A DNA stretch of 62,460 bases from a virus. Lineage: Duplodnaviria > Caudoviricetes. Location of the stretch: positions 1-62,460 of IMG/VR virus record IMGVR_UViG_3300027852_000006, one strand, 5' to 3'. Both the position numbers and the translations under genes were made by a program. Shown piece after piece: positions 29,782-62,460 of the stretch. Position 1 is the first letter of the stretch, and every line of letters begins with the position of its first letter. A model generated the notes under the pieces. That model searched no databases and was not told the origin of the DNA. It saw nothing but the letters and a program-made list of their open reading frames with translations.

Positions 29782-30915
29782 ATGGCTAGTAATTTAACTG
29801 AAGCGACCAGGGAAATGGTCGATAAAACATGGAGAAGCGCTGTAAGTTATGGCAGTCCATTGTTTACTCGTTTGATTGAACGTAAGCAAGTGATTGAAGG
29901 TGGTCTTAAATTCCAGCAATTGCTTGAAACTTCTGATATGCAATCACTTGTGCAGGAATATGGGCCCAATGACGGTCTTGTTGGTGGTTCAAAAGAATTT
30001 ATTGATAAGCCGGAGTTTGTAAGGGCTTTCATTCAAGTTCCTTTGGAAAAGAGTGTTGACGAAAGTGTCATGAATGCTCCGAAGGGCGACCATCAGTTGC
30101 TCAATATTGCCAAGAAAAATACGCAGCGTGGCATAAAGGGCGTCAAATTACAAATGATGCACCGTATGTATGGCTGTGCTACTGATACTGAAATTGACGC
30201 ATATCATACTTATATGCAGGGTCTACCGTCAGCTTTGCTGGAAAATACCACTTATGGTAGTATTGCCAGGTCTGGTACTACTACTGGTGGCTTTTGGCAA
30301 TCTGCCGATTATTCAGCATGGGACACAGCGGTCAATATTAACAAATACAATGTTAATACATGGCTTGACTCTTGCTTGGAATACTCAGAAGATCGCGGCG
30401 AATTTCTCATTGTCATGGGTAATACACTTTATAACCGGCTCAAAGGCATTTTTGAGGCATCTAACACATACACGCCAAAGGCTAATAAATCTGAACAGGG
30501 GTTTGAGTCGATGGAATTTGATGGCATAGAGATCGCCAAGTGTTATTTGCTTGATAGAATGGTTTCGACTGGTTCAACCAATAACCAGGGAAGTGTTTCT
30601 ATTTTGCATAATGGGTCCAAGACAATCAATTCCGATATAGGAGCAACTACATCCGCTGGTCTATGCGGAAATTCCTCTTATGATGGCAATCAGTATGTCT
30701 TTGTTCTTGACTTGCGAACGTGGAACTTGAGATATAGTTTTAATCCAGATGACAGTGGTAAAAGGGCTGGTGATAGTCCTTTCATCATCACTGATTATTT
30801 CGATCAATCTCAGCTTGAGGGTGGTGTTGAAAAAGCACTAGCTCGCGTTAAGTTCCGTGGCAATCTATGTTGTGACCTTCCCAATCATAATCTTATGAGA
30901 GCGAATGTCTCTTAA
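29782..30915 (+). CDS. Major capsid protein (HK97 fold, BPP-1 Bbp17-like)
   Basis: SPLFTRL..IEGG, TYGSIAR..FWQ, GFESMEFDG, GNLCC.LP; strong RBS; canonical position. Confidence 0.85.
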   Translation: MASNLTEATREMVDKTWRSAVSYGSPLFTRLIERKQVIEGGLKFQQLLETSDMQSLVQEYGPNDGLVGGSKEFIDKPEFVRAFIQVPLEKSVDESVMNAPKGDHQLLNIAKKNTQRGIKGVKLQMMHRMYGCATDTEIDAYHTYMQGLPSALLENTTYGSIARSGTTTGGFWQSADYSAWDTAVNINKYNVNTWLDSCLEYSEDRGEFLIVMGNTLYNRLKGIFEASNTYTPKANKSEQGFESMEFDGIEIAKCYLLDRMVSTGSTNNQGSVSILHNGSKTINSDIGATTSAGLCGNSSYDGNQYVFVLDLRTWNLRYSFNPDDSGKRAGDSPFIITDYFDQSQLEGGVEKALARVKFRGNLCCDLPNHNLMRANVS

Positions 30916-48500: not shown

Positions 48501-51064
48501 GTGTAATAATTGGACCTTTTGGTGAAAAAGAGTATGGTGATATATATAACAAATCAGAAGCTGGTTTTGCTGCAATTCCAGATTGGAATGATGCTAAAGA
48601 GTTTATGTCTTTGCCACACAAAACAGCTAAGGGGATTGCATCGCTTGGCGGTAGATTTACTCAACAAAGCGTTGATCAATTAGCTAAATGGGCGCCTATA
48701 TCAGGCAAGGCTCTCGGTGACAGCTTCTTTACTATCACACATAGAGAGAGTGAATTAGTCGGTCTTTGGATGGACGAAATGCGTAACGCTATGGGGAAAA
48801 TGACAAAGGCAGAACAGGATAACTACCGCAGGGCTGTACGTGGCAATGCTACCGCAACAAATAAAAAAGTAAAAACAGCTATTGATTTGACTTTGAAATT
48901 GTCCGATAAAATGGGTGTTTTGAAAGAAGATGTCGGACTAAGCTCTTATGGCCCTAAAGGCGAAACGCCATTTAAGCTATTGCAGAAGCAGTACCCCTTA
49001 CGGTTGAGCAAACAAGCAAGAGAATCAATCCAGAAAGAAAGCGGTAAGGAGTATGAAGATTTAGCGGAATGGATAGCTCTTGATATGGATAAAAGGGGAA
49101 TCGAGTATGTAGAAAAACAGATAAGGGAAAAGACTAAAAATAGATCAAAGGCAACCTATATTAAACAAGCTAAAAGGTTTTTAAGAGATTCACGCAAATA
49201 TAGCCCATCTGGTCAAGAACTGGAGGAATTATATTTACGCTTATCTCAAGGCAAAAAAACAGGCCCTAGATTTGAGAGTAAAATAGCTAAATGGCAGTAC
49301 CATCGAGCTTTTGAGTATCCTGATATGTTTTTGGATAAGAATCCTTATAAGGTGTGGGAACAACATATTTATTCATCAGGACGACGAATAGCTGAAGCGG
49401 AGGTATGGGGGCCAAAAAGTGACAGGCTTAAAAAAACTATTAAAGCCGGGTATGTGGAAACTGGCAAGATAGCTCGCAAAAAAGGTAAGGACATTGACAG
49501 GGAACAACAATCATTCCTAGATGCAGCTAGCCACCTTGTAGGTTACGAAAGTGATATTGGGGGGTTGAAAACCCAGCCGTCTAAAGTTTCAGTTAAGATG
49601 ATGCGTGGGGGGCGGATAGCTACTGGTGCTATTCACTTGTTTAATCTCACCGCTCCACTCCGTAACACTATATGGGGACAAGCGGCATCTATGACGCACT
49701 TTGGATCGTTAATGCCACACGCTCAGTATTTACGGGTTATATTTCAACCGAAATCGATTAAGGAAGCTCGGAAAGCGGGGGCCTTAGAGCATAGCGGAAC
49801 AAATCATTTCTTTGCTGAAGGTGTTGCTCCAGAAATCGTATCGGTTGCAAGACTACCAATGGGTATAGCAGAAATCATGTTACGGACCACATCTGCTTTT
49901 ACTGGGGCCGGTGTTTGGAGCAGGGCAGTTAAACGAGCAAACAAAAAGTACAAAAAAACCGGAAAGATTCATAAAGATAATTGGTTGATACGAGAACTGA
50001 CAAATAGGGATGTTGGGTTTACCAAAGAGCAATGTATCGACATGATCAAGCGTGGTTCTGTGAGTACCGCTGAGAGATACCGCATGATGCGAGGCGCTGT
50101 GAACGTCACACAGTTCAGTGCTGACGCTAAAGATATTCCGCTTTCATGGTCTACTGAAGGCGGACGATTCTGGACACAATTTTATTCAATGGCGTATAAG
50201 CATACGCAAAATACTATTGGTTACGCACTCGAAGAATTGGGACATGTCAGACTAAAACCATTATTGAGGTTTGCGATTGCGGCTATATTCGCCGGATGGT
50301 CCATAGAAAAAGTCCGCGAAGTGTTTAGTGGTAAGATGCCAGGCAAAAAAGATGTAGACAGGCTTGATAAGTGGTTGAGGCGTATTGGCAATGCTTTGGG
50401 TGTCATAGAGGTTCCAATACGTCTTTTGTCTACCAGTGATCCAGGGCAAGTTTTGCGGACAATTACCCCTGCACCTGTTGGCACTGCTGCTAACTTAGTA
50501 GCGGCAGCACATAAGGCAGCAGCAACTTACGCAGGGCCAGAGGCAACTACCGAAAAAAAACAACAAAAGAAAGAAGCATCGGCTATTAAAGGAGTTGCGA
50601 CAACAACGGGATTGGGAAGGAATATTTATGGTATATTACAAAAAGCCAGGCAAGGACGGCCGTTGCTTGGGATACAAGCGGTGTCAGAAAAAGAAGATAC
50701 TGTAGCTGAGTATTATCGACGTAAGCTGGCTAACCTATACAGAGAAAGTAAACCAGAATCAGAGATTAAAAAACATGATGATTGGGCTAGGAAAAAGGGT
50801 ATAAATATCAAAAAGGAGAAGGAAAAAGCTCAAATAACTGTACGTTCAGAGTTATATGACGAATTATATATGGCTAAAAAGAAAGAAGATTCAGTTAAAT
50901 ATGATGCAATCAATGAACGTCTAAAGACTCAATTGGGAACCAAGTCGTCCAATATTCGCCAAGCCATAGAAAACCGTACAGCTAATGATGAAGATCGTAA
51001 GCCACGGAAAGTTGGTGGTTCTTCAAGAAGAAATAGACGCAGTCGAGCAAGACGTAGCCGCTAG
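45596..51064 (+). CDS. Large (1822 aa) polyvalent ejection protein with J-domain and beta-clamp-like segment
   Basis: LGLGPEAT.EQIRQA.R....LHPD; VATDGRIL...FP..EKVIP; last gene of the late module. Confidence 0.7.
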   Translation: MATVLEQLEQRLLTPKPEPIVTHDPAVIKSLETGLADSPPPQTDPFVVKTLEDKLLSQPHSSVSTGASTGVSPGQSPYKSPVFAKESGLPKVSTGLEGGLSNKPVYDDFGYGVGGSWDEPDPHTTRMTGMKDAYVEEILKMSPNKRRAWMGAHANDEFFGLNEWMSRKNIHPTEWLQYLFDGVDVRGFNAAEKAAIEKVVSESPLKEKVIQGAASVPRLAVEFGATGMGLGALAKTAGLGSKISGSAPLVDRALSSAGKAAAVFGAHEGMQAPRKDETIPGRVASTVGAAGTGVMLGALGAAVPSTAIRAPAVIAGFGGKTYMETGGDVDATIEAMVQIAAFEALGLSKQAARYGKSRYESYRAGDKLAVAEAVKRTSADLFRMRSKALEELGLGPEATSEQIRQAKRQAGMKLHPDIAGKQAEPAFKQKIAAAEFLEGKRGQFVPETAKIRPFPAQGLTKTKKTTPSTSLATKSTTEQARAPEAKTVFSRMPDDILKQQADHGVLGAQKEQVLRQSGPKAVESQKKPGKPPKPSFKQKIEPEQTTVQEPASQVAPTRQPGPQEPMEPVGEKAGTKELAKAEKTQIAKEANLKQKDISPAKEKQQLAEKTGETIKPEVVTPDAKEIVPIKTHRVTIEGTTQIAKKLFVRKQLQNIIKTLPEKTTTEHQNLLNELAKRDVRRAWVETGDEKDKIKKLTALLRSHSVKVEFDNDTTLWIPNSRDVIDRDPKWINKSVGAVIATSAKPRKKITLPVARKKTKISSPQLKAGKDYVKLVHIAAASKVTEKGQSLSGVKATEDEIVATDGRILFTIKREGAFKDVAQVYKDNKGMFLGKDGKPITNENLSFPTHEKVIPEDNLITTETDLQQLFRNIKKASLFAGKAKDPEKEGVHAYLNPDKTLGFTCLEPSTTSKVNVQDGASYVASMNPHNLMRLITAHIKVGSKKLKIHIKEGENNFGVLKLVGEKGDTSVIIGPFGEKEYGDIYNKSEAGFAAIPDWNDAKEFMSLPHKTAKGIASLGGRFTQQSVDQLAKWAPISGKALGDSFFTITHRESELVGLWMDEMRNAMGKMTKAEQDNYRRAVRGNATATNKKVKTAIDLTLKLSDKMGVLKEDVGLSSYGPKGETPFKLLQKQYPLRLSKQARESIQKESGKEYEDLAEWIALDMDKRGIEYVEKQIREKTKNRSKATYIKQAKRFLRDSRKYSPSGQELEELYLRLSQGKKTGPRFESKIAKWQYHRAFEYPDMFLDKNPYKVWEQHIYSSGRRIAEAEVWGPKSDRLKKTIKAGYVETGKIARKKGKDIDREQQSFLDAASHLVGYESDIGGLKTQPSKVSVKMMRGGRIATGAIHLFNLTAPLRNTIWGQAASMTHFGSLMPHAQYLRVIFQPKSIKEARKAGALEHSGTNHFFAEGVAPEIVSVARLPMGIAEIMLRTTSAFTGAGVWSRAVKRANKKYKKTGKIHKDNWLIRELTNRDVGFTKEQCIDMIKRGSVSTAERYRMMRGAVNVTQFSADAKDIPLSWSTEGGRFWTQFYSMAYKHTQNTIGYALEELGHVRLKPLLRFAIAAIFAGWSIEKVREVFSGKMPGKKDVDRLDKWLRRIGNALGVIEVPIRLLSTSDPGQVLRTITPAPVGTAANLVAAAHKAAATYAGPEATTEKKQQKKEASAIKGVATTTGLGRNIYGILQKARQGRPLLGIQAVSEKEDTVAEYYRRKLANLYRESKPESEIKKHDDWARKKGINIKKEKEKAQITVRSELYDELYMAKKKEDSVKYDAINERLKTQLGTKSSNIRQAIENRTANDEDRKPRKVGGSSRRNRRSRARRSR

Positions 51065-51092
51065 CTGTCCTCATATAGTTCATAACATGCAA

Positions 51093-51572
51093 TCAGTTTT
51101 TCAATGATGTCTTGTAGTATTTTTCGATTAGTTCATTGTCTATTGTAAGCCCCTTTGGCAAAACACCTATTAACATGTATGGTTCAATGGTAACCCACCA
51201 TGGTGTCCCTTTTTGATGTGTCAATGCGGACAGTTGTAGTCCAAAATAGTTTTTGTATCCATCCCAAATGGCCTCCAGAAATTTTATTCCATCGCAGTCA
51301 TCTGGTGGCACACAATATTCTATTGGTGCAGTGATTGGGTTGTTGCGATGTTTTTTAAGACTCTGGTATATAGATTCTATTGCAGGACCATATTTCCATG
51401 CTTCGGCGCGCTCTTCAAACAAAGGCTTACTCAACAACGCTAAATGCCAACCATGGGCAATATAAGTCAATTTATTGCCTTGTATGGGTGTTATAGGCAC
51501 CTTTTCTTCAATTCCCTTTCTTATAAAGAAATTTACGATTTGTTGTGGGTCATAATTCATGTTAGCCCTCAC
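51093..51572 (-). CDS. Panacea-domain (DUF4065/SocA-like) antitoxin-like protein
   Basis: NKLTYIAHGWHL...PLF.E..EAWKYGP, LSALTH..GTPW. Confidence 0.85.
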   Translation of the reverse strand: MRANMNYDPQQIVNFFIRKGIEEKVPITPIQGNKLTYIAHGWHLALLSKPLFEERAEAWKYGPAIESIYQSLKKHRNNPITAPIEYCVPPDDCDGIKFLEAIWDGYKNYFGLQLSALTHQKGTPWWVTIEPYMLIGVLPKGLTIDNELIEKYYKTSLKN

Positions 51573-51945
51573 ATTTCATTTGTTTTTCTAACACCCTAAC
51601 TAATCGTTCATTTTCTTCGTTTATCTCATTTTCTGTTGTGTAGCGACTTTCTGCTAACCACGATATTTTACTTAAGAATAAGTGCATTGCCTCGTGCCTT
51701 GCGTGTGACTCTGGTGTACAGTACTCGCCTACATCGCTTTTGTCTATTTCAGTACAAAGGGTGACAACCGCAAGTTTTGCTGGCTCACTTACATGTATTG
51801 ATGCGTAGGCTCCGTTAATTGGTTCATGGCGATAAGTAATGCGGTATCCATTCAAACCCAACTTGTCAATATACCGATCAAACTCACGCTTGAATCTGTT
51901 AAAATGAGTCTTTGTTATACGCATCGAATTTTCCTTTCTAATCAT
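51562..51945 (-). CDS. Small HExxH metallopeptidase-like protein
   Basis: ARHEAMHL plus downstream EENE. Confidence 0.6.
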   Translation of the reverse strand: MIRKENSMRITKTHFNRFKREFDRYIDKLGLNGYRITYRHEPINGAYASIHVSEPAKLAVVTLCTEIDKSDVGEYCTPESHARHEAMHLFLSKISWLAESRYTTENEINEENERLVRVLEKQMKCEG

Positions 51946-52029
51946 GGCATGTAACTTACTGCGAAATAAGGTGTTATGTGAATTGCAAATTTTTGTTGCA
52001 TCGGCAAGCTATAATTCGTATACTTCAAT

Positions 52030-52102
52030 GTACTCGGTGGCCATTGGTTTCCCATGTAAGAGCCGAAGGAGATGGACTCGCCTTTGAGCGGGTCTTTTTT
52101 TT
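52030..52102 (+). ncRNA. Putative ~70-nt small RNA ending in an intrinsic terminator
   Basis: TTGCAT-17-TATACT at 51996-52024; gactcgc/gcgggtc stem followed by T8. Confidence 0.4.
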
Positions 52103-52172
52103 AACAAATCCTATCTTTATATGTCCTCTGGGTATATAAATACTTTATTTCTTTTGTTTCTCCCTGATTATG

Positions 52173-53309
52173 TCAGATATACCTACGACCACGGCAGTGC
52201 TGGTTGTCTTTCTTGCTAAACTTCTTGCCATACTCCTCAATATGTTTAATGAAACTTTTCCCTATAACTTCGCCGAGTTTTACGGGTACTGCATTGCCAA
52301 TCAATCGACCGATAGTTTTGCGTTGAATAGGATATCCTGTTCGCACAAATTTGTAAGCCTTTGGAAAGCCCTGCAGAATTGCTCCTTCCCTGAGTGATAT
52401 CGCTCTATTTTGCTTTGGATGTCCGAAACGACCGTTGCCAAAACCATAAAACTGAGTCGTGATTGTAGGTGCTACTTCATCCCATTGCATACGACCATAT
52501 ACACCAGAATAAGTCTTGCCTGTTTTTTTCTTATGGCATTGTGCAACTAATTTGAAATTCCAATCTCGCCATGTACCTCCAGGTTTGGAAGCCTTGATGC
52601 GTTTCAAATTTATTGGTGACAACATACTTGACTGATGTATCGGATCCTTTTCGTAAACACCACCGGCTACTATCGGTGGTAATTTACCAATAGCGTCACG
52701 AACGGTTTTGAGCTTTGTTTTTTTCTGACGAGAAAGCATTTGTATTGGTCCTAATTTGGATGCTAACAGTACAAGCCTTCGCCTATGTTGAGGAATGCCA
52801 TAATTAGAACATCTGACAATCTGATAATTCACTTCGTAGCCTTCTTGCTTCAGATCCGAAATGAATCCATCAAATATATCATATTTTACCAAGCCTGGGA
52901 CATTTTCCATCGCGACAAGTTCGGGGGATAGTTCTTTTATGAGCCGGAAAAACCCTATCAACAACCACCAGCGGTGATCTTCAAAATTGGCCTTAGCAAT
53001 TTTTTGATTGTAGGACGAAAACGTTTGGCAAGGAGCACATCCAGCCAATAAACGTATTGTTCTTGGAACATATTTAGATTCAATTTCTTCCAATTCCACA
53101 TCATGAACGGATTTCAAAAGAAATTCAGAATTATTGTTTGCTGTATACGGATATTCACACGCAGGATCAATGTCAACTCCAAGCCTTACATCAATTCCTG
53201 CTTTTTCTAAACCCTTAGTTAAGCCACCCACACCACAGAATAAATCTATAGCAGATATTTTTGTTTTAGTCTCAAAGGAGCTCTCTATTTTTCTTTTGCG
53301 ATTTACCAT
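52173..53309 (-). CDS. C5-cytosine DNA methyltransferase (orphan)
   Basis: DLFCGVGG, GCAPCQ, ENVPG, PQHRRR, LREGAILQGFP, IGNAVP. Confidence 0.95.
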   Translation of the reverse strand: MVNRKRKIESSFETKTKISAIDLFCGVGGLTKGLEKAGIDVRLGVDIDPACEYPYTANNNSEFLLKSVHDVELEEIESKYVPRTIRLLAGCAPCQTFSSYNQKIAKANFEDHRWWLLIGFFRLIKELSPELVAMENVPGLVKYDIFDGFISDLKQEGYEVNYQIVRCSNYGIPQHRRRLVLLASKLGPIQMLSRQKKTKLKTVRDAIGKLPPIVAGGVYEKDPIHQSSMLSPINLKRIKASKPGGTWRDWNFKLVAQCHKKKTGKTYSGVYGRMQWDEVAPTITTQFYGFGNGRFGHPKQNRAISLREGAILQGFPKAYKFVRTGYPIQRKTIGRLIGNAVPVKLGEVIGKSFIKHIEEYGKKFSKKDNQHCRGRRYI

Positions 53310-53334
53310 ATTTCCTTCTGGGCATCTAAGTATT

Positions 53335-53520
53335 TTATTTTTTTTGTTTTTCTTTGATTATGTCAGCTATACCTACGACTCTTTCCGGCCAATAGCCATG
53401 TATTTCCTGTTGTTCAAACAACTGGCCGCTGGGTGTCCGCAGCCATTGCCTCCTTACGTTGCATACTTTCGTATCCAATCCCCATTGATCTATATCTTCT
53501 CGGCTATATGGTAAACTCAT
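53335..53520 (-). CDS. Hypothetical protein
   Basis: ATGA-coupled short ORF. Confidence 0.45.
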   Translation of the reverse strand: MSLPYSREDIDQWGLDTKVCNVRRQWLRTPSGQLFEQQEIHGYWPERVVGIADIIKEKQKK

Positions 53521-53777
53521 AATTGCTCTATTTTTTGTCGTTTTTTTTGTTTGCTATGATGCCTTCTGGCAAAATTTATTACTGTTTTTGTTAAGTACGA
53601 TTGAATGTTGCGTATATGACTGCGATCCATGGACATTACGCTAACAAAAGCATCTTGGATAGCATCTTCGGCTGACCCACTGTCTCCCCTTAGTATTTTT
53701 GTTGCAATCATCAACAATTTATCGTGCATATCTCTATATATATCACCTAGATCATTCAATATGTTTGTCCAAACCAA
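53517..53777 (-). CDS. ECF sigma factor region-2-only protein
   Basis: IY......LL.IA..IL..D...AEDAIQDAFV...SYL...VIN..R; no region 4. Confidence 0.7.
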   Translation of the reverse strand: MVWTNILNDLGDIYRDMHDKLLMIATKILRGDSGSAEDAIQDAFVSVMSMDRSHIRNIQSYLTKTVINFARRHHSKQKKRQKIEQL

Positions 53778-54037
53778 GCGTTAATAGCCATATTATAGCC
53801 TTGATCAGTTAGGCTAAAAGCGACTATTTTATTATTTTGTTTGTGTATTTTTATGGTTCCTTTTGTCTTGCCATTGATACGTGATACAACTTGCATAAGG
53901 TTTTCTTGGGTTATATTGTCCATCATGGTTTTTATTTCTTCAATAGGCGTTGGTTTTTTGCTCAATAATGTTAATAGTTGCTGGCCTAAAGTTAAAAATT
54001 GGCCCATTGTTTTGTCGTATTGTCGTGGTGTTTTCAT
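53756..54037 (-). CDS. Small winged-helix-like protein
   Basis: Helical N-terminus, FSLTDQG wing motif. Confidence 0.45.
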   Translation of the reverse strand: MKTPRQYDKTMGQFLTLGQQLLTLLSKKPTPIEEIKTMMDNITQENLMQVVSRINGKTKGTIKIHKQNNKIVAFSLTDQGYNMAINAWFGQTY

Positions 54038-54441
54038 TGATTCTTATTTGCCTCACGAATAGCGACGATAGTTTGTCTAATACTCCAGCCATCCTCAATA
54101 GCCTCAACTTGAATTGCGTTATGCTCGCCCGCACAAGCATCATTGATTCCCTTAATACGATCACGCTCGTCAATTCTAGCCTTCGCGATGATGGCAGCCT
54201 TATCGATTACTTCTGTTTTCTTGTGATTCTTCATTCTTTTCCCTTTCCTTTTGTCTGGCAAGGAATACCAATCCTTGAATGCGTGGATTTTCCAGCCATC
54301 TTTGCTTGCATTTTTGATAATTTCTATGGTCAGATCCGTATCGCGTTCGGTATTAGTGCCAAACATATACTTTGTGATGTCTCTAATATGAGCCGGGTCT
54401 GGATTCAGATAGGCCAATAGCTTTGTGGTTAGTTTTATCAT
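54034..54441 (-). CDS. Protein with C-terminal scaffold-like segment (possible internal start at 54234)
   Basis: ERDRIKGINDACAGEH..IQVEAIEDGWS...T...IRE; internal RBS aaggaaaggga. Confidence 0.55.
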   Translation of the reverse strand: MIKLTTKLLAYLNPDPAHIRDITKYMFGTNTERDTDLTIEIIKNASKDGWKIHAFKDWYSLPDKRKGKRMKNHKKTEVIDKAAIIAKARIDERDRIKGINDACAGEHNAIQVEAIEDGWSIRQTIVAIREANKNQ

Positions 54442-54462
54442 GGTGAGATTCCTTTTTTTGTT

Positions 54463-54930
54463 TTATGAGCCGCTAGTCAGGCTGAATATTGTCCTGACTG
54501 GCGTCTGCTCGGTGTTGGTGGTATTGATGTCCACGATGGAAATTTCCTGCGATGTCGATTGTTTAATGTGATAGAATGGTGCTTTGTGTTTGATGCCATT
54601 TATTTCACGAGTTCCCTTTCTGACAAGTTCGATGTTGATAGATTCCGTATCAATAGAAACTTGCCATCTAGCCGTAGACACGGTTTGTTTAATAACATCC
54701 TTAGTAAATCCCTTGGTAATGCTAAAATCAACTTCAAGCATCAACGAATCGTTTTCGATTATGACGGATGCCACGCCCAGGGCACGTTTCTTACGTTTTT
54801 TATGATTGATTGAAAGTCCCGTATTACAGCGACCTTGCAATCCTTCCAAGTCTACCACGACTGGACGTTCCCTGTTGGGAAAGTTTGTTTTGCCACCATC
54901 GTAAATCTGAATTTTTTCGGTTACACTCAT
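54463..54930 (-). CDS. Prohead-protease-like protein (divergent)
   Basis: YDGG...PVVVDLEGL...NH...G...WQVSI...ING....P.Y.I..S..QEISIVD. Confidence 0.6.
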   Translation of the reverse strand: MSVTEKIQIYDGGKTNFPNRERPVVVDLEGLQGRCNTGLSINHKKRKKRALGVASVIIENDSLMLEVDFSITKGFTKDVIKQTVSTARWQVSIDTESINIELVRKGTREINGIKHKAPFYHIKQSTSQEISIVDINTTNTEQTPVRTIFSLTSGS

Positions 54931-54953
54931 TGTGTTATCTCCTTGCGAGTAGT

Positions 54954-55301
54954 TTATCTTTTGCCCTTCCTAAACCTGCTGATTAGCCAGATTTGATAAC
55001 TTTCTTTTCCATCAGTTTTCCCGTTGGCAATCTCCAGCAGAACATCTGCATGGCATGGCCGATCTAGCGGACACCAACAAGCTAAGTTTTTTCCTTTTAA
55101 TTCTTTTATGATTTCCTCTGTTGATGGCGGTTTCGGATAATCCATAAGGTCTCCCGCCAGATATTTTTTGTATAAATCAACTTGAGCGTATGGATTAGCC
55201 CAACGGCTCGGCCTGCCGACATAAACAACTGGCAGCCCATTAGGTGATTCTAGCCTAGCGCCTTTACGGCGACTGCGTTGTAGTCTGACTGGCTTTATCA
55301 T
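54954..55301 (-). CDS. DUF4326-like protein
   Basis: YVGRPSRWANP, ELKGKNLACWCP...CHADVL. Confidence 0.85.
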   Translation of the reverse strand: MIKPVRLQRSRRKGARLESPNGLPVVYVGRPSRWANPYAQVDLYKKYLAGDLMDYPKPPSTEEIIKELKGKNLACWCPLDRPCHADVLLEIANGKTDGKESYQIWLISRFRKGKR

Positions 55302-55336
55302 TTTTTCTCTCCGCGTCATAGTAGTTTTTGGACATT

Positions 55337-56491
55337 TTAGCCGGTAGCCAAACCTCTGATATACCCATGCGCTTCTTCGTTTCGTATTTCCAGAGTATAT
55401 TCTCCGATCAGTTCCCCACATTCGTAATCTCCGTTGGACGTCAGAGGTTTGAAGTGGAAACTTCGTCCTCTTAACGGCGTCACCGACAATCTTGTGCTAT
55501 CAAGCAATAGTACTGCATCTTGCGGCATCCATCGCGACACGATAACCTTGCAAAGTCCGAAGTCACTTTCATAGAGGATCATCAAATCTCTGTATTTTTG
55601 GTCTTCGGCCCCGAATTTTCGGTTGCTGCTCATAAAGTCATTGATTTGTCGTTTTTGGTATTCATTAACAACGATGAGGTTGGTATTGCCGCTGCTATTT
55701 TCCCATATATGTCTCAGCGCGTAATTGATTTTTGCTTCGTCAAGCGTTGTCCCGCTCGGAAATCCAGCATCTCCTGTCTGAAACTGATTTGTTGTAATGC
55801 TTTGGAAAATACCTCTCAAAGTTCTTCGTACCGTATCCGACCCTTGTGGATTACTGGTTGGTGATCCACCATTTATGATGGTATTTTCCAGGTCTCTCAA
55901 CAGTTCTCTGAGTCGTTCCTGTTTCTGGTAGTCCAGTTCATCTGATACCGCCATTTGTCGTGCCATCATGGCACTTCCTGAGACTTTTATCGCTGCGGTG
56001 AATATCTGTGTATAGTTTCCTTTTCTGGTTCGGTTGGTGAATCTCACTGTTGGTTTGCCACTGCCTTCAAGAGCGGCATTCCCCAGAATGTTGATGACCA
56101 GGTTGTCCTTGAGGTCCTCTGCCGTTGTGCCTCCATACCCCCGCACCACGGTTAGCGTGTCACTGTTGATGTTAGTCACCATCATTAGTTCTTTGCTGCT
56201 CTCAACTTGGATTTGATCACCCACTTGGAATCTGCTGCCGTTATCCACAACGAACTCAGTATCTTTCGCCGGATCAGTGAAAGTACTATCATTGATAGCA
56301 TCTTTGTTGGGCAACAGGTGGTCCTCCAGCCATTCATGGTATGTGTTCGTTGCTGGGCGTAGTGGGTCTTCTAGTATATCCAATAATGGCGTCTCATAGG
56401 GCGATACAATGTTTACTATGTCTGCCACATCTTCTGCTGTTCCCGGTAGACTTGTGTCTGCCGAGTATGTTGATTTTCCTGTAAAAGACAT
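55337..56491 (-). CDS. Second major capsid protein (SU10/DUF5309 type), outside the structural module
   Basis: EDVADI...SPYETPLL, HEWLED, NYTQIF...VSG, RDLE...ING, R..RG, YESDFG, GEYTLEIRNE.AHG. Confidence 0.85.
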   Translation of the reverse strand: MSFTGKSTYSADTSLPGTAEDVADIVNIVSPYETPLLDILEDPLRPATNTYHEWLEDHLLPNKDAINDSTFTDPAKDTEFVVDNGSRFQVGDQIQVESSKELMMVTNINSDTLTVVRGYGGTTAEDLKDNLVINILGNAALEGSGKPTVRFTNRTRKGNYTQIFTAAIKVSGSAMMARQMAVSDELDYQKQERLRELLRDLENTIINGGSPTSNPQGSDTVRRTLRGIFQSITTNQFQTGDAGFPSGTTLDEAKINYALRHIWENSSGNTNLIVVNEYQKRQINDFMSSNRKFGAEDQKYRDLMILYESDFGLCKVIVSRWMPQDAVLLLDSTRLSVTPLRGRSFHFKPLTSNGDYECGELIGEYTLEIRNEEAHGYIRGLATG

Positions 56492-56492
56492 T

Positions 56493-56879
56493 TTAGATTT
56501 CCTTTCTTTTGTTTATGCAACATTTCTTAAACTTCTTTCCGCTGCCGCAAGGGCATGGTTGGTTTCGGCCAACAGCTTCTGTTTTTACAGAGACAAAACC
56601 TCTTTGCTTTGACTCCTCACGAGCCGCATCAATTGCGGCATCTAGTGAGCCATAAAAATCGCGTGTTTCTATCGTTTCTATTTTTTTTATTGCTTTCATT
56701 CTTGATACCTCCGTTTCCCACCACTCGCTTTCGCTGACAAAACCTTTTTGCTTTGATGCCTCACAAATTGCATCAATTGCCGCCGGTGAGTCAGCATATT
56801 TTTTCGCTGCGGCAATGCTTTCGCTCATTCTTTCGGCAAATGCTTTGGTGATTTCATCGCGTGTTTCTATTGTCTTCAT
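56493..56879 (-). CDS. SEC-C motif protein with an internal duplication
   Basis: [19 protein letters not shown]; TIETRD..AAIDA..E.SKQ.GFVS twice. Confidence 0.8.
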
Positions 56880-57487: not shown

Positions 57488-59257
57488 CTAAGTTAAAACG
57501 ACAGGCAATGGTTTTACGGATACCTTCTCCGCCGGAGCGATTACAACATCTCCCTGTTGATACCAGTTGGCCCCATTGCTGCTAATTGGATATTCCTTAA
57601 ACCAATCTGGTTTACGGAAATGCAATGCCTTTTCCACAGTATCACAATCGTCAAGCACACCCTCGATATGAATGATTTCATTTTCCGGCGTTGACAGTGA
57701 CGGGTTAATCATCTTTAACATGGTCCATGCGGTTTCACCACCAACATCAAGCTGTATTACTTCGTATTTGTGCCGAAAAACATCATCACCATTACTTATT
57801 AAGATATTTTGTTTATCCAACGTTTTCCCGCCCAGTTTGTAATATAACCGTTCGTAGCCGACTTTGCGGATAAACTCTCGGCGCACTTCATCGTTAGCTA
57901 TCTCTTTAATCATAGAGACATCAATTTGATCGCCAGGTGTTTCCGCGAGCCATTGGGGAACACGAACGCCATTCAATGACCACACTTTCACATACCCACC
58001 TGCGTATTCAATCGACGGTGAGCCGTCGGAATGTAGTTTGCCATCCACAAATTTAATGTGTGTCGGCTTTTGCGAAACAACACAGAAATCATCAAGCGGA
58101 TAAACCGGACCCAGATCACAACATTTTTTGAAATGGGAATAACCTTTTATGCCAGAGAAATCTATACCAACTACTTGCTCCATGTAGTCGAAAAAGGCAT
58201 ACCAGTTAGAAAAAAAGGAACCTTCAAAGTAAGGGAAGAAAAAATCTTTGAATTGATTCTTGACTTGCCCATTGGTTTGTTCCTTGATTTGACCTATAAC
58301 TTGATCCCAGACATGGCCCTCAACTTGACCCATGACTTGATTCCAGACATGGCCCTTGACTTGAGCCTTGACTTGATTCATGGCCTGAGTCTCGATCCGA
58401 GTCCTGACTTGAGTCAAGACTTGGTCTACGATCTGATTATAGACTTGAGCCCAGACTTGATCCACGGCCGTAGCCGCGACCTGAGGCCCAACTTGCTCTC
58501 TGGTCTGTTCCTTGACTTGAACTATGGCTTGATCCAAGAATTGGTCCCTGACATAATTCCTAAGCTGATCTCCGACCTGCTCTCTAACTTGAGCCTCGAT
58601 ATAAAACCAGACCTGAGCCCAGACTTGTTTATCAGCTTGATCTCCGACCTGATCCCAGACCTTATCCACGACTTGATTTTCAGCTTGAGCCTTAACTTGA
58701 TCGCCGACTTGGGCCCTGGCTTGATTCCAAATCTTAGGCCTGACCTTATCCACGACCTGGGCATGGACATGATCCCTGACTTGGGCCTCAACCTTCTCCC
58801 AGACATGATTGCAGACCCGAGCCTCAAACTGACTCTGGGAAAGGACCTTGGCCTGAAAATTAATCTGATCCCTGATATGATCCTCGGCCTGAGCCTTAAC
58901 TTGATCGCCGACTTGAGCTACAACCTGATTCTCGGCCCGTTCCCAGACCTGAGCCTTAACCTGATCCCAGACATGATCCATGACCTGTTCCTTGAAATAT
59001 CCTATGGACAGATCGTTTTTACCGGCCTGGCAATTAACCTGAGCACAAAGCATCACCGCCAAATACGCTTGCAACGGATCGTCCATCAGTAAAATTATCT
59101 GTGGAGGTTTCTTTTTCAGAACGTATTCATAGAAACCGTTAATCTTCGGTCTGACCTCCGATAGCTTAAGTCTATCTGTGGATAATCCGTTCTTTACCCA
59201 TTTGTCTGCATATATTGGCATTTGATCTTCTTGTTGTTTTGTAAGTTCGGTAATCAT
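57488..59257 (-). CDS. DUF6745-like protein with long QV repeat
   Basis: QVxxQVxx repeats; GKLHSDGSPSIEY, NGVRVP, N.EVRR. Confidence 0.8.
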   Translation of the reverse strand: MITELTKQQEDQMPIYADKWVKNGLSTDRLKLSEVRPKINGFYEYVLKKKPPQIILLMDDPLQAYLAVMLCAQVNCQAGKNDLSIGYFKEQVMDHVWDQVKAQVWERAENQVVAQVGDQVKAQAEDHIRDQINFQAKVLSQSQFEARVCNHVWEKVEAQVRDHVHAQVVDKVRPKIWNQARAQVGDQVKAQAENQVVDKVWDQVGDQADKQVWAQVWFYIEAQVREQVGDQLRNYVRDQFLDQAIVQVKEQTREQVGPQVAATAVDQVWAQVYNQIVDQVLTQVRTRIETQAMNQVKAQVKGHVWNQVMGQVEGHVWDQVIGQIKEQTNGQVKNQFKDFFFPYFEGSFFSNWYAFFDYMEQVVGIDFSGIKGYSHFKKCCDLGPVYPLDDFCVVSQKPTHIKFVDGKLHSDGSPSIEYAGGYVKVWSLNGVRVPQWLAETPGDQIDVSMIKEIANDEVRREFIRKVGYERLYYKLGGKTLDKQNILISNGDDVFRHKYEVIQLDVGGETAWTMLKMINPSLSTPENEIIHIEGVLDDCDTVEKALHFRKPDWFKEYPISSNGANWYQQGDVVIAPAEKVSVKPLPVVLT

Positions 59258-61720: not shown

Positions 61721-62460
61721 TTACTCCTTACTTGTGAATCTCATCGAGTTGCCTTCCCAGTCGAGTCGGACTTCGCCGGTCGGCCCAGACCTCTGTTTGG
61801 CCAAAACAATAATTCCCTCACCGGTCTTTTTGGTCTCGTCACGGATGTAATAATCCGGTCTGTAGAGCAACATAACCGTGTCGGCATCCTGTTCGATATT
61901 GCCAGATTCGCGTAGATCGGATAGCCTGGGCCGGTGGTTTTCTCGCGTCTCGGCTTCACGATTCAACTGGCAGACGACCATCACTGGTATCTTTAATTCA
62001 CGTGCCAAGAGTTTTAATTGCCGCGAACATTCGCCGACCTTTTCATATCGCTTTTTATCCCCAGGCAGGTCCATGAGTTGCATATAATCAACCACTATGA
62101 GCTTTATGTCGTGTGTTCGCTTTAGTGCCCTTGCTTGGCTTCGCAGGGATGTAGGCGTGAGCTTCGGCGTATCGTTAATCAACAGCGGCATCTGTGATAT
62201 TTCGTGAGCCGTTTCGTCAAGCGTGCGAATACCGTCATCATTGAGATAGCCCTTTTGCATCTGGTGCATACCAAGATTGCTATGGCGGGCGATAGACCGT
62301 TCGCCTAGCTGCAATTTTGACATCTCCAGCGAAAAAACTACCACAGATATATTTTGACTTGCTACATTCTCGGCAATGTTGAAAGCTAGCACGGACTTGC
62401 CCATGCTAGGGCGACCAGCGACAACGATCATCTCGCCAGAATGCAAGCCGCCGGTTATCT
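61721..62460 (-). CDS. dnaB: DnaB helicase, C-terminal RecA-like part
   Basis: AGRPSMGKS, FSLEMS, VVDYMQL, QLNR, DLRESGNIEQDAD, KQRSGPTG. Confidence 0.97.
   Translation of the reverse strand, partial: ITGGLHSGEMIVVAGRPSMGKSVLAFNIAENVASQNISVVVFSLEMSKLQLGERSIARHSNLGMHQMQKGYLNDDGIRTLDETAHEISQMPLLINDTPKLTPTSLRSQARALKRTHDIKLIVVDYMQLMDLPGDKKRYEKVGECSRQLKLLARELKIPVMVVCQLNREAETRENHRPRLSDLRESGNIEQDADTVMLLYRPDYYIRDETKKTGEGIIVLAKQRSGPTGEVRLDWEGNSMRFTSKE

What the first reader, a model, noticed from the sequence alone, without database searches (positions are those of the whole stretch)
54034..56491. A second, foreign set of head-assembly genes (capsid, protease-like, scaffold fragment) in the early arm
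Seen: besides the cognate capsid at 29782-30915, the early strand encodes an intact 384-aa SU10/DUF5309-type capsid with no obvious sequence similarity to it. Two genes downstream are a stand-alone prohead-protease-like ORF (PVVVDL.GL, WQVSI, EISIVD) and a scaffold-like peptide (ER.RI..I...CAGEH...EAIEDGW) with its own internal RBS. No second portal or terminase is present. From recall, the capsid resembles that of a conserved phage-like cluster in Phycisphaerae chromosomes, and the protease/scaffold resemble planctomycete Mu-like prophage head proteins, so there may be two donors. Inference: these are captured parts used as dominant-negative poisons of competing prophage/GTA assembly (compare PICI Ccm and PLE TcaP), as decoys for capsid-sensing immunity, or to build an alternative shell.
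Basis: partly seen in the sequence, partly recalled or inferred. Interest (0 to 1): 0.85.

Follow-up and report, generated by a model that had tools for sequence, protein, structure and literature searches.

The report
Phage carrying a host-cluster capsid copy
A complete 62-kb phage that has its own capsid gene also keeps, among its DNA-replication genes, an intact copy of the capsid protein of a virus-like gene cluster found in most Phycisphaerae bacteria, plus a broken remnant of another phage's head-protease gene, which suggests that phages meddle with their hosts' domesticated virus particles.

Summary
The window is a complete phage genome with a 119-bp terminal repeat. Its own head module (terminase, portal, coiled-coil scaffold) ends in 29782-30915, which a confident model places among HK97-fold capsids. 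On the minus-strand replication arm (DnaB, C5 methylase), 55337-56491 is an intact SU10/DUF5309 capsid. It is 67-77% identical to the capsid of a single-copy portal-scaffold-capsid-tail cluster with no adjacent terminase, matched in 117 of 201 sampled Phycisphaerae-class genomes. The phage shares only the capsid with that cluster.

The "protease" and "scaffold" ORFs (54930-54034) form one colinear, in-frame stretch split by a single TAA. It matches the N-terminal half of the protease-scaffold-capsid fusion genes (Mu gpT type) of Phycisphaerae prophages. It is degenerate and lacks the capsid domain.

A new point is that two unrelated viral records also carry a copy of this capsid beside recombination genes. 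One of them has its own capsid as well, plus the C-terminal tail of the cluster's scaffold.

The two-donor origin is supported. The direction of transfer is unresolved. The function is inferred only. The capsid copy is under purifying selection, and its changes are concentrated in the N-arm and residues 174-182. My best guess is a mimic subunit that perturbs or exploits assembly of the host particle.

The parts
55337..56491 (-). Second capsid gene (MCP2), 384 aa, SU10/DUF5309 type. It is intact and its AAGGAAA ribosome-binding site is close-coupled to the upstream gene.
   Evidence: PF17236 E 5.6e-83 and phrog_1328. 67-77% identity to Phycisphaerae cluster capsids. A family profile hits the solved capsids 9ny2, 9in6 and 7z45. 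Sequence read.
54954..55319 (-). DUF4326 gene between MCP2 and the protease-like ORF. The listed ORF runs to 55421, but the likely start is the ATG at 55301 (behind GGAGAG) or at 55319.
   Evidence: PF14216 E 1.9e-15 and phrog_464 E 6e-27. Start codons read.
54463..54930 (-). Protease-like ORF, 155 aa. It is a divergent stand-alone copy of the N-terminal protease domain of protease-scaffold-capsid fusion proteins. His43 and Ser92 are kept, and 15 of 38 family-conserved columns are changed.
   Evidence: tblastn with the G120 fusion: 41% over 142 aa, E 1e-30.
54034..54441 (-). 135-aa ORF in the same frame as the protease-like ORF, behind one TAA. Residues 1-~63 correspond to the variable linker. 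Residues ~64-131 are the scaffold segment (ER.RI...C.GE...AI..GW). There is an internal ATG at 54234. The frame ends where the capsid domain would begin.
   Evidence: No family hit on its own.
56493..56879 (-). Upstream neighbour: a 128-aa protein with a C-terminal SEC-C zinc motif and an internal repeat. It is unrelated to the cluster scaffold.
   Evidence: PF02810 E 4.4e-10. hhalign against the scaffold profile gives probability 0.3%. A low-depth variant skips 188 bases inside it.
29782..30915 (+). Cognate major capsid protein (MCP1), 377 aa, HK97 fold.
   Evidence: Model pLDDT 85. 288 PDB matches at E<=1e-3, the listed ones capsids and encapsulins. 48% identical and syntenic in the related phage G001.
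18900..29747 (+). The phage's own packaging and head module: small terminase 18900-19496, large terminase 19489-21276, portal 26113-28194, coiled-coil scaffold-like 28926-29747.
   Evidence: phrog_4044, phrog_2, phrog_156, PF23899 and PF16510. Coiled-coil-type weak hits.

Best explanation
The window is a complete tailed-phage genome, probably of a Phycisphaerae host. It builds its head from its own portal, scaffold and HK97-fold capsid module. In its replication arm it carries two accessory pieces of foreign head genes.

(a) The first is an intact capsid gene that is kept under selection. It belongs to the clade of capsids encoded by an old, single-copy, phage-like (GTA-like) cluster in Phycisphaerae chromosomes. 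None of that cluster's other genes came with it.

(b) The second lies about 400 bases downstream. It is a decaying remnant (truncated, split by a stop, degenerate) of the protease-scaffold half of a Mu gpT-type fused head gene from Phycisphaerae prophages.

Inferred mechanism: the capsid copy is made together with the replication genes and acts as a mimic subunit. It still fits the host particle's scaffold and capsid lattice, but it is altered in the N-arm and at residues 174-182. It therefore perturbs (poisons) or exploits the assembly of the host's domesticated particles during infection.

What is shown: identity, relatives, context, recurrence and constraint. What is inferred: timing of expression, co-assembly and the effect on the host particle. 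The protease-scaffold remnant is most likely debris of a recombination event, possibly with a residual binding role.
For: Identity and completeness:
- IMG/VR classes the record as having direct terminal repeats and as 100% complete. An exact 119-bp terminal repeat is present.
- MCP2 matches PF17236.

Relatives:
- 4323 proteins at E<=1e-3 among the 8000 candidates scored. The 120 listed are 69-77% identical, and the source names that are given read Phycisphaerae, Sedimentisphaerales or Planctomycetota.
- 312 of 352 pattern matches in species-representative genomes encode a relative.
- 117 of 201 sampled class genomes have a match, nearly all single, at 47-70% identity. There is one copy in each of 5 of 5 complete chromosomes.

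Cluster:
- The portal, scaffold and capsid are found in 74, 77 and 79 of the 79 other bacterial loci. Seven further cluster genes are found in 51-75 of them. Annotation.
- The flanks are housekeeping genes, and there is no adjacent terminase.
- Only the capsid is shared with the window.

Constraint:
- The window keeps 170 of the 187 columns that are >=97% conserved in 81 cluster capsids, but differs from the consensus at 95 of 197 variable columns.
- dN is 0.17 against the nearest cluster capsid, with synonymous sites saturated.
- A 384-codon open frame has a chance of about 8e-9.
- The 17 departures are clustered: 7 of 30 conserved columns in residues 1-50, 5 of 10 in residues 170-185, and 0 of 44 in residues 51-140 (the windows were chosen post hoc).

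Recurrence:
- The unrelated 41-kb terminal-repeat virus G003 has its own terminase, portal and phrog_334 capsid. It also carries a 63%-identical copy between RecT/exonuclease and resolvase/methylases. It shares nothing else with the window.
- The 92-aa ORF just upstream of the G003 copy carries the conserved C-terminal tail of the cluster scaffold (hhalign probability 91%, E 1e-6).
- A third viral record (G211) has a 46-55%-identical copy two genes from a RecE/YqaJ-type exonuclease.
- The two phage copies share 6 departures against 2.8 expected, including identical G181A and L182V.

Accessory status: the related phage G001 (95% complete, syntenic structural arm) has no SU10-type capsid.

Binding: ESMFold2 complex of MCP2 with residues 115-191 of the nearest cluster scaffold. 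Verdict: weak support. Score 0.39, best of 3 controls 0.01, partner pLDDT at least 56, runs agreeing in at least 44% of contacts. The mark was reached by 58 of 80 solved complexes and 2 of 110 mismatched pairs, but at 0.60 or under by only 7 of those 80 and by both mismatches that passed.

Remnant.
Against: - No expression, virion or assembly data exist. The only run holding the sequence is DNA.
- The host is not identified.
- That the host cluster makes particles at all is inferred from gene content.
- The direction of transfer is unresolved. The ML tree nests the window copy in a 23-row subclade with cluster-context capsids (SH-aLRT 91). However, AU tests reject neither a window+G003 clade (p 0.284) nor monophyly of all other rows (p 0.396).
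- The terminal branch of the window copy is about 3 times the median (0.31 against 0.10). This could be relaxed constraint rather than adaptation.
- The enrichment windows were chosen after seeing the data. N-arm enrichment is absent in G003 (6 of 30 against 25 of 157, p 0.37).
- My AlphaFold2 model of MCP2 was unusable (pLDDT 41), so the changed residues could not be mapped to interfaces.
- The complex result is only weak support.
- Only two or three viral records were found, in pattern-limited scans. G211 is 51% complete, so its own capsid was not seen.
- The genomic contexts of the closest database proteins (P0028-P0032, on contigs of 3.5-72 kb) could not be seen.
Confidence: 0.45

Rival explanations
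1. Passenger DNA. The capsid copy, like the protease-scaffold remnant, is debris of illegitimate recombination with host or prophage DNA and has no role for the phage.
For: - The protease-scaffold stretch next to it is clearly decaying: an in-frame TAA, 15 of 38 conserved columns lost, and the capsid domain missing.
- The non-structural arm is highly mosaic. Only one gene of it is shared with the related phage G001.
- The terminal branch of MCP2 is long.
Against: - 170 of 187 family-conserved columns are kept, while 95 of 197 variable columns differ.
- Synonymous sites are saturated at dN 0.17.
- The frame is intact and has a ribosome-binding site.
- GC3 is 46.5%. This lies within the phage's range and below all 80 bacterial cluster genes measured (49.9-86.5%), so residence has been long.
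- Intact copies occur in two other unrelated viral records.
Confidence: 0.17
2. Alternative shell. The phage uses MCP2 to build a closed, portal-less HK97-fold compartment (encapsulin-like) in the infected cell, unrelated to the host cluster's particles.
For: - Only the capsid gene is carried, with no portal.
- HK97-fold proteins can form such shells, and encapsulins are among the fold matches of this protein class (for MCP1).
- The gene is placed among replication genes.
Against: - No cargo-type gene or targeting peptide was recognised.
- The cluster scaffold tail kept beside the G003 copy and the conserved lattice-forming core point to the cluster's own assembly pathway.
- Self-assembly was not tested.
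Confidence: 0.12
3. Component of the phage's own virion, for example a vertex, cement or second-shell protein.
For: Some phages use a second HK97-fold protein at the vertices (T4 gp24, recalled). MCP2 is intact.
Against: - MCP1 and MCP2 are not detectably related.
- MCP2 lies on the opposite strand among replication genes.
- The related phage G001, with the same head module, lacks it.
- G003 has a different head module yet carries the same gene.
Confidence: 0.08
4. Immune decoy or mask. MCP2 titrates or blinds a host defence that senses capsid proteins, or marks the infected cell as 'self'.
For: Capsid-sensing defences exist (CapRel, PMC9712102, search listing only). GTA release is tied to an immune-like system in Caulobacter (PMC13236601, search listing only).
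Against: - A sensor of the phage's own capsid would not be fooled by an unrelated protein.
- No defence gene was linked to the cluster in the loci read.
- This reading is purely speculative.
Confidence: 0.08
5. Assembly artefact, or MCP2 is the relocated true capsid.
For: The genome comes from a metagenome. The only holder run may be the source.
Against: - A second assembler gives a 49.9-kb contig that covers window 50000-56639, from the tail-end structural gene through MCP2, with 0 differences and even depth of 47 and 45.
- 29782-30915 has a confident HK97 fold in the canonical position.
Confidence: 0.03

Closest known systems
Ccm of SaPIbov5 (cos-type staphylococcal pathogenicity island)
   Same: A mobile element carries a homolog of another element's HK97-fold capsid protein, without that element's other head genes. 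The homolog enters the other element's assembly pathway (PMC8569155 and PMC5052747: search listing and start of abstract only).
   Different: Ccm is encoded by a satellite and aimed at its helper phage. Here a complete phage carries the homolog, and the presumed target is a chromosomal, domesticated cluster. Co-assembly is shown for Ccm and is only inferred here.
PLE TcaP, P4 Sid and capsid-forming PICIs
   Same: These are extra head-assembly genes that redirect or replace another element's capsid (8g1r and 7jw1 appear among the fold matches; 10.1101/2022.09.08.507074, listing only).
   Different: TcaP and Sid are external scaffolds and not capsid homologs. cf-PICIs carry a full head module. 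All of them are satellites.
GTA-like structural genes in Rhodobacter and roseobacter phages
   Same: Phages and a host's domesticated phage-like element share homologous structural genes (PMC8601537, PMC4961962, PMC5454422: listings only).
   Different: As I recall, in those phages the shared genes are part of the phage's own structural module. Here the shared capsid is additional to the phage's own capsid and sits among replication genes.
SU10 / Pa223 / VP1 major capsid proteins (PF17236; PDB 7z45, 9ny2, 9in6)
   Same: Same sequence family: profile E 7.6e-12, 1.5e-25 and 3.8e-14.
   Different: About 25-35% identity only. MCP2 and the cluster capsids have an ~80-residue insertion (about residues 61-139) relative to the Pa223 alignment.
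Protease-scaffold-capsid fusion head proteins of Mu gpT / Phage_capsid_4 type
   Same: 54930-54034 is colinear with their first ~245 residues: the protease domain, the linker and the ER.R...AI..GW scaffold segment.
   Different: The window copy is split by a stop, lacks the capsid domain and is the most degenerate of the 50 sequences compared.

Membership tests
SU10_MCP / DUF5309 capsid family (PF17236) | Match to the family model above the curated cut-off, over the full length | tested here: met
   279.3 bits against a cut-off of 24.1; residues 13-381 on model positions 5-291 of 292.
SU10_MCP / DUF5309 capsid family (PF17236) | HK97 fold | tested here: inconclusive
   My AlphaFold2 model was poor (pLDDT 41). 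By sequence, the family profile matches solved capsids 9ny2, 9in6 and 7z45.
Capsid of the Phycisphaerae chromosomal phage-like cluster | Belongs to the clade of cluster capsids | tested here: inconclusive
   67-76% identity to the 81 cluster-context rows and up to 77% to database proteins. Nested in a 23-row subclade with SH-aLRT 91. The AU test does not reject placing it outside (p 0.396).
Capsid of the Phycisphaerae chromosomal phage-like cluster | Sits between the cluster's scaffold and its 218-aa downstream gene, behind the SPP1-type portal | tested here: not met
   No other cluster gene is in the window. The neighbours are a SEC-C protein and a DUF4326 protein.
Peptidase_S78 prohead protease | Match to the family model | tested here: not met
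   No Pfam or PHROG hit even at E<=10. The link is only transitive: 17 of 50 aligned relatives match PF04586. ESM Atlas gives leads.
Peptidase_S78 prohead protease | Catalytic His and Ser (residue roles recalled, not from a call) | tested here: inconclusive
   His43 and Ser92 align with a nearly invariant and an invariant family column. However, 15 of 38 conserved columns are changed, among them Gly94 and the GAD motif at 136-138.
Protease-scaffold-capsid fusion (Mu gpT / Phage_capsid_4 type) | One polypeptide with protease, scaffold segment and capsid domain | tested here: not met
   The protease and scaffold segments are present and colinear in one frame, but they are split by a TAA. No capsid domain: PF25209 gives no match at E<=1, and tblastn matches only fusion residues 24-165 and 190-242.
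Ccm-type capsid-homolog assembly redirector | Homolog of the target's capsid protein, carried without the rest of the head module | tested here: met
Ccm-type capsid-homolog assembly redirector | Encoded by a satellite that depends on the target | tested here: not met
   The carrier is a complete phage with its own terminase, portal and capsid.
Ccm-type capsid-homolog assembly redirector | Co-assembles with the target capsid and changes the product | not testable with these tools
   There is only weak support for binding the cluster scaffold tail: score 0.39 against a best control of 0.01.
Gene transfer agent (for the host cluster) | Chromosomal head-tail gene cluster that is vertically kept, without replication or integration genes | tested here: met
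   Conserved order in 51-79 of 79 loci. Single copy in 5 of 5 complete chromosomes. Matches in 117 of 201 class genomes. Housekeeping genes on both flanks.
Gene transfer agent (for the host cluster) | Own terminase, and packaging of host DNA into released particles | not testable with these tools
   No terminase lies next to the cluster. Terminase-like matches occur elsewhere in 4 of 5 chromosomes, one of them weak and one with stops. Particle production is unknown.

The most novel reading that the evidence does not exclude
Phycisphaerae carry a class-wide, so far undescribed GTA-like particle system, and phages that infect them have repeatedly acquired its capsid gene (in one case together with the scaffold tail). 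They would express it with their replication genes as a poison or mimic subunit. This would be the first phage counter-measure aimed at a host's domesticated virus particle, the mirror image of satellite capsid piracy. It would imply that the host particle interferes with phage infection or is triggered by it.
Probability: 0.25. Interest if true: 0.9.

Novelty: new variant of a known kind. Interest (0 to 1): 0.74.

Why it matters
Until now, capsid homologs used against another element's assembly have been a weapon of satellites against phages. A complete phage that keeps a copy of its host's domesticated capsid would show the conflict running the other way. The copy is under selection, sits away from the phage's own head genes, and recurs in unrelated viral genomes. 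It would also give a handle on what GTA-like particles do during infection.

The finding also points to an apparently undescribed phage-derived cluster. It is single-copy and very strongly conserved: mean 85% capsid identity across 81 loci (80 species-representative genomes and one provirus record). It was matched in more than half of the sampled Phycisphaerae genomes. The proteins are short and can be co-expressed, so the hypothesis can be tested directly.

Tried and rejected
Rejected readings:
- Relocated true capsid. 29782-30915 has a confident HK97 fold in the canonical place.
- Chimeric assembly.
- Protease and scaffold as two independent, intact genes. They form one frame with a single stop and are degenerate.
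- The SEC-C neighbour as a disguised cluster scaffold (hhalign probability 0.3%).
- The scaffold-like ORF as a cluster-type scaffold (probability 3.9%).

Steps that led nowhere:
- The single-protein scans of viral and metagenome contigs found nothing close.
- The scan with the two phage copies returned only relatives at <=35%.
- The near-length word search for the protease-like ORF found only the ORF itself.
- The AlphaFold2 model of MCP2 from 20 close sequences was unusable (pLDDT 41), so the changed residues could not be mapped.
- NG86 dS was undefined (saturated) for every pair that included a phage copy.
- No tRNA genes.
- The promoter scan gave fewer sites than shuffles, 10 against 20.2, so operon boundaries are not known.
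- No RNA holder was listed.
- The complex job gave only weak support.
- Two neighbours of the G211 copy had no match in cultured phages.
- Cultured phages hold no relative above 30% identity.

Literature searches that found no description of a Phycisphaerae or Planctomycetota GTA-like cluster, or of DUF5309 in this role. A search for phage-encoded capsid homologs aimed at GTAs found none. These four searches are the only basis for 'not found in print'. Of all cited papers I saw only search listings and the starts of abstracts. No supplements were consulted, and none bears on a claim.

As a result, the contexts of the closest database proteins (P0028-P0032) remain unseen.

Full report
WHAT THE WINDOW IS. 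The 62,460-base window is a whole virus record. IMG/VR classes it as having direct terminal repeats and as 100% complete, and I found an exact 119-base terminal repeat. The plus strand carries the packaging and structural genes:
- small terminase 18900-19496 (phrog_4044);
- large terminase 19489-21276 (phrog_2);
- portal 26113-28194 (phrog_156; weak SU10_portal and P22_portal matches);
- a coiled-coil scaffold-like gene 28926-29747;
- the candidate capsid 29782-30915, followed by long tail and injection-type genes up to 51064.

The minus strand from 62446 down to 51093 carries non-structural genes:
- DnaB-type helicase 61721-62446 (E 1.7e-86);
- C5 cytosine methylase 52173-53309 (E 4.2e-56);
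- an ORF holding only sigma-70 region 2, 53517-53777;
- a SocA/Panacea-domain protein 51093-51572.

The finding lies in this arm. That the arm is 'early' is inferred from gene content and has not been shown.

THE COGNATE CAPSID IS REAL. 29782-30915 has no Pfam, PHROG or PDB sequence match. It has 25 homologs at 36-68% identity. An AlphaFold2 model built on their alignment is confident (pLDDT 85, pTM 0.84). Foldseek finds 288 PDB chains at E<=1e-3, and the listed ones are phage capsids (PhiTE, HRP29, T5/DT57C, P4 procapsid and others) and encapsulins, with TM 0.36-0.51. The gene is 48% identical and syntenic in a related 59-kb phage, G001, which shares the whole structural arm. This removes the refuting scenario 'the SU10-type gene is simply the relocated true capsid'.

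THE SECOND CAPSID. 55337-56491(-) is an intact 384-codon frame. It has an AAGGAAA ribosome-binding site and starts two bases after the stop of the upstream gene. It matches SU10_MCP PF17236 at E 5.6e-83 and phrog_1328 at E 6.9e-73. A profile of its family matches the solved capsids of Pseudomonas phage Pa223 (9ny2, E 1.5e-25), Vibrio phage VP1 (9in6) and SU10 (7z45, E 7.6e-12). Relative to Pa223 there is an insertion of about 80 residues. It is not detectably related to the cognate capsid: BLASTP E 1.1 and hhalign probability 1.6%.

ITS RELATIVES ARE CHROMOSOMAL.
- The word-indexed protein search gave 4323 hits at E<=1e-3 among the 8000 candidates scored. The 120 listed are nearly all 384 aa long and 69-77% identical. 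The source names that are given read Phycisphaerae, Sedimentisphaerales or Planctomycetota, and the contigs reach 631 kb.
- In one-genome-per-species contigs, 312 of 352 pattern matches encode a relative. The best 80 (68-76% identity) include five complete chromosomes.
- With locus L008 as reference, a same-strand gene order is conserved. It runs: SPP1-type portal (514 aa), scaffold (174 aa; weak Phage_scaffold hit), capsid, then proteins of 218, 122, 260, 262 and 151 aa, a podophage fibre-type gp80, a Laminin_G_3 protein of 524 aa, and a 613-aa protein.
- The portal, scaffold and capsid have homologs in 74, 77 and 79 of the 79 other bacterial loci. Seven further cluster genes I tallied have homologs in 51-75 of them. 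Many loci are cut by contig ends, so a miss is not an absence.
- The flanks are housekeeping genes: a pfkB kinase, a GH5 hydrolase, a nitroreductase and a spore-photoproduct-lyase-like protein.
- Each of the five complete chromosomes has exactly one SU10-type match. None has a terminase beside the cluster. Terminase-like matches lie megabases away in 4 of 5, one of them weak and one with stops.
- In an even sample of 201 genomes of the class, 117 have a match at E<=1e-20, nearly all single, at 47-70% identity over the full length.
- The cluster capsids are very alike: mean pairwise identity 84.6% and minimum 70.8% among 81 rows (80 bacterial loci plus the provirus locus L083).

I read this as an old, vertically kept, domesticated phage-like element, GTA-like by gene content. 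Whether it makes particles is unknown. Three literature searches found no description of it.

ONLY THE CAPSID IS SHARED. BLASTP of all window ORFs of 40 aa or more against all ORFs of 90 loci, and the reverse search with the cluster proteins, link only the capsid and its shadow ORFs. There are two exceptions. One is a 19-residue SEC-C motif. The other is a weak family link for two structural-arm paralogs, described under 'noticed in passing'. tblastn with the cluster portal and two cluster scaffolds finds nothing in the window.

SELECTION AND AGE.
- Of the 187 alignment columns that are at least 97% conserved in the 81 cluster capsids, the window copy keeps 170. It differs from the consensus at 95 of the 197 variable columns. 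The constraint pattern of the family therefore still applies to it. Cluster rows depart at a mean of 1.0 and a maximum of 7 of those 187 columns.
- dN against the nearest cluster gene is 0.17, with synonymous sites saturated.
- GC3 is 46.5%. This is inside the phage's range (33-48% in ten genes) and below all 80 bacterial cluster genes measured (49.9-86.5%). The gene has therefore been in a low-GC genome for a long time.
- The 17 departures are not spread evenly: 7 fall in the 30 conserved columns of residues 1-50, 5 in the 10 of residues 170-185, and none in the 44 of residues 51-140. One-sided Fisher p values are 0.008 and 0.0006, but I chose the windows after seeing the data, so these are indications only.
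- I could not map these residues. The AlphaFold2 model of MCP2 from 20 close sequences failed (pLDDT 41). By alignment to Pa223, residues 174-182 precede the long helix (low confidence).

DIRECTION OF TRANSFER. A FastTree of 121 rows puts the window copy at the unresolved base of the cluster clade. The G003 copy is sister to all of them. An IQ-TREE (LG+C20 PMSF, quick search) used 46 of those 121 rows. I chose them to cover the basal lineages, a sample of the crown, and three outgroups. It nests the window copy in a 23-row subclade (SH-aLRT 91) that includes capsids verified to sit in the cluster (L002, L003, L005, L011). Its terminal branch is 0.31 against a median of 0.10. AU tests reject neither a window+G003 clade (p 0.284) nor monophyly of all other rows (p 0.396). 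Capture from a host cluster is the simplest reading. The truncated scaffold in G003 fits it, but it is not proven.

RECURRENCE IN OTHER VIRUSES. This is the main new evidence.

G003 is a 41,165-base viral record with terminal repeats. It has its own large terminase, a phrog_156 portal (E 1.6e-93) and a phrog_334 major head protein (E 2.9e-68). It also has an intact 386-aa copy of the cluster-type capsid, 63% identical to the window's. This copy lies between a RecT-like annealing protein and exonuclease on one side and a Holliday-junction resolvase and DNA methylases on the other.

G003 shares no other protein with the window at E<1e-4, and its own capsid is unlike the window's. The 92-aa ORF that ends 11 bases before this copy carries the most conserved part of the cluster scaffold, its C-terminal tail (BLASTP 36% over 70 aa, E 6e-6; hhalign probability 91%, E 1.1e-6). 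G003 therefore holds the 3' end of the scaffold gene and the capsid gene in cluster order.

A third record, G211 (39.5 kb, 51% complete), has a 421-aa copy. It is 46-55% identical in the N-arm and the C-terminal 226 residues, with a different middle. It lies two genes from a RecE/YqaJ-type exonuclease and about 26 kb from a weak terminase-like match. It shares only this gene with G003, the cluster and the window, apart from a methylase-type match to the window. Its own capsid could not be checked.

The window and G003 copies depart together from the cluster-conserved residues at 6 columns against 2.8 expected (p 0.04). The changes G181A and L182V are identical in both. In contrast, G001, the true relative of the window phage, has no SU10-type capsid (95% complete). 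Its non-structural arm is almost wholly different. The gene is therefore accessory.

THE PROTEASE-LIKE AND SCAFFOLD-LIKE ORFS.
- 54463-54930 has no direct family hit and no near-length relatives. ESM Atlas gave leads to Peptidase_S78 and to protease-capsid fusions.
- The exhaustive phmmer search found 125 relatives at E<=1e-3 (best 37% identity, E 1.3e-21). Most matches cover residues ~9-150 of the query and the first ~170 residues of 600-800-aa proteins.
- Of the 50 I aligned out of those 125, 26 match Phage_capsid_4, 23 Mu-like_gpT and 17 Peptidase_S78. The alignment profile also matches solved Mu GpT-domain capsids (8rkx, 8rkc).
- Residues 79-128 of 54034-54441 align with exactly that segment (hhalign probability 93%, E 3.1e-7).
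- In a sample of 201 Phycisphaerae-class genomes, 52 have a match to the protease-like ORF. Most matches lie in open frames of 600-770 aa, and some genomes have several (up to 8). The best is G120, with 40% identity and E 1.6e-31. There, a 640-aa fusion follows a portal gene.
- tblastn with that fusion hits the window only at 54903-54478 (fusion residues 24-165, 41%, E 1e-30) and at 54207-54049 (residues 190-242, 45%, E 7e-8). Nothing matches the capsid part, residues 243-640. PF25209 has no match in the window at E<=1.
- The two ORFs are in one reading frame, separated by a single TAA and seven codons. The first ~63 residues of the second ORF take the place of the family's variable linker.
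- The protease-like part keeps His43 and Ser92, which sit in a nearly invariant and an invariant family column. That these are the catalytic pair is my recollection of the S78 family. It departs at 15 of 38 columns that are at least 85% conserved in the 49 relatives. The relatives depart at a mean of 2.3, a median of 2 and a maximum of 10.
- Both pieces have good ribosome-binding sites, and there is an internal ATG with one at Met70. Open frames of 135-155 codons have a chance of about 1e-3 here.

I conclude that 54930-54034 is the truncated, split and degenerating N-terminal half of a Mu gpT-type fused head gene. It probably came from a prophage of the same host group. It may be debris, or it may retain a binding role. 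Neither G001, G002 nor G003 has a relative of it.

ASSEMBLY CHECK. Only one public run holds the region, and it may be the source sample. In Logan's independent assembly of that run, a 49,883-base contig covers window 50000-56639 with no differences at depth 47.1. A 12,518-base contig covers 56610-60500 at depth 45.4. The break coincides with a low-depth (3.6) variant that skips 188 bases inside the repeat-containing SEC-C gene. MCP2, the remnant, the methylase and the end of the 1822-aa structural gene are thus on one contig. There is no sign of a chimera.

MECHANISM. The following are shown:
- an intact, constrained copy of the host cluster's capsid, carried without partners;
- its location among replication or recombination genes in three otherwise unrelated viral records;
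- a scaffold-tail fragment accompanying it in one of them;
- changes concentrated in the N-arm and at residues 174-182.

From this I infer that the protein still engages the cluster's assembly partners and is made to disturb or use that assembly.

One direct computational test was run: an ESMFold2 complex of MCP2 with residues 115-191 of the nearest cluster scaffold. The verdict was weak support. The score was 0.39 (three runs: 0.38, 0.39, 0.57) and the best of 3 controls was 0.01. The partner pLDDT was at least 56, and the runs agreed in at least 44% of contacts. In the tool's calibration, the mark was reached by 58 of 80 solved complexes and 2 of 110 mismatched pairs. At 0.60 or under it was reached by only 7 of those 80 and by both mismatches that passed. 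I supplied my own alignments, so these counts hold only roughly.

This slightly raises the odds that the phage copy can still bind the host scaffold. It says nothing about the outcome. The rival readings (passenger DNA, an independent shell, a virion component, an immune decoy) are listed with their tests.

COMPARISON WITH THE KNOWN. The nearest mechanistic analogue is Ccm of SaPIbov5. It is a capsid homolog carried by a satellite that redirects its helper's capsid (PMC8569155; listing and start of abstract only). Here the carrier is a full phage and the presumed target is a domesticated chromosomal element, so a defining membership feature (a satellite) is not met. Phages that share structural genes with a host GTA are known in Rhodobacter and roseobacters (PMC8601537, PMC4961962; listings only). 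As far as I recall, those shared genes are the phages' own structural genes. I therefore rate this a new variant of a known kind. The function is unproven.

LIMITS.
- The host is not identified.
- There are no expression data.
- The viral-contig scans are pattern-limited.
- Papers were seen only as search listings.

Noticed in passing
L008:7789-19722 (and the same region of L002-L081): A conserved, single-copy phage-like cluster of portal, scaffold, SU10-type capsid and about ten further genes. It has housekeeping flanks and no adjacent terminase. Capsid matches occur in 117 of 201 sampled Phycisphaerae-class genomes, and capsid identity averages 85%. No paper describing it was found in three searches. 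It looks like an undescribed GTA-like element.
   Followed up: partly
L082:6734-7012 and L082:7023-8183 (virus record G003): An unrelated 41-kb terminal-repeat virus with its own phrog_334 capsid carries a 63%-identical copy of the cluster capsid between recombination genes. Directly upstream of the copy is a 92-aa ORF that holds the C-terminal tail of the cluster scaffold.
   Followed up: yes
L189:2759-4024 (virus record G211): A third viral contig with a 421-aa relative of the cluster capsid. The N-arm and C-terminal two thirds are 46-55% identical, and the middle domain is replaced. It lies two genes from a RecE/YqaJ-type exonuclease. The record is only 51% complete.
   Followed up: partly
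window 21778-23334 and 23394-24923: Two tandem paralogs (69% identical) between terminase and portal. They are ~30% identical (E 1e-34) to a 473-aa protein in a variable slot of the chromosomal cluster in L034 (10083-11504), and more weakly to proteins in the same slot of four other loci. They may be shared receptor-binding or tail proteins, which would hint at a Phycisphaerae host.
   Followed up: partly
window 56655-56844: A low-depth (3.6 against 47) variant contig skips 188 bases inside the SEC-C-motif gene, which contains an internal repeat (IET..TRD, twice). This looks like population heterogeneity at the gene just upstream of the second capsid.
   Followed up: no
window 51093-51945: A SocA/Panacea-domain (antitoxin-type) ORF, 51093-51572, overlaps the end of an unannotated 127-aa ORF, 51562-51945. 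This may be a toxin-antitoxin-like pair in the phage.
   Followed up: no
window 53517-53777: An 86-aa ORF that matches only region 2 of sigma-70 factors (E 4e-8). It may be a truncated or minimal sigma-like protein.
   Followed up: no
window 57488-59257: A 589-aa protein with long runs of Q-V-x-D-Q-V-type repeats and a C-terminal DUF6745 domain. The repeats also keep a 344-codon frame open on the opposite strand (58058-59092).
   Followed up: no
window 33430-36144: A 904-aa protein in the structural arm with an N-terminal family-2 glycosyltransferase domain and methyltransferase-like and ParB-like weak matches. This is unusual among virion genes.
   Followed up: no
G133 and other genomes: Mu gpT-type protease-scaffold-capsid fusion genes occur in several copies per genome in some Phycisphaerae-class genomes (8 matches in G133). 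This suggests active transposable-phage-like prophages in this class.
   Followed up: no
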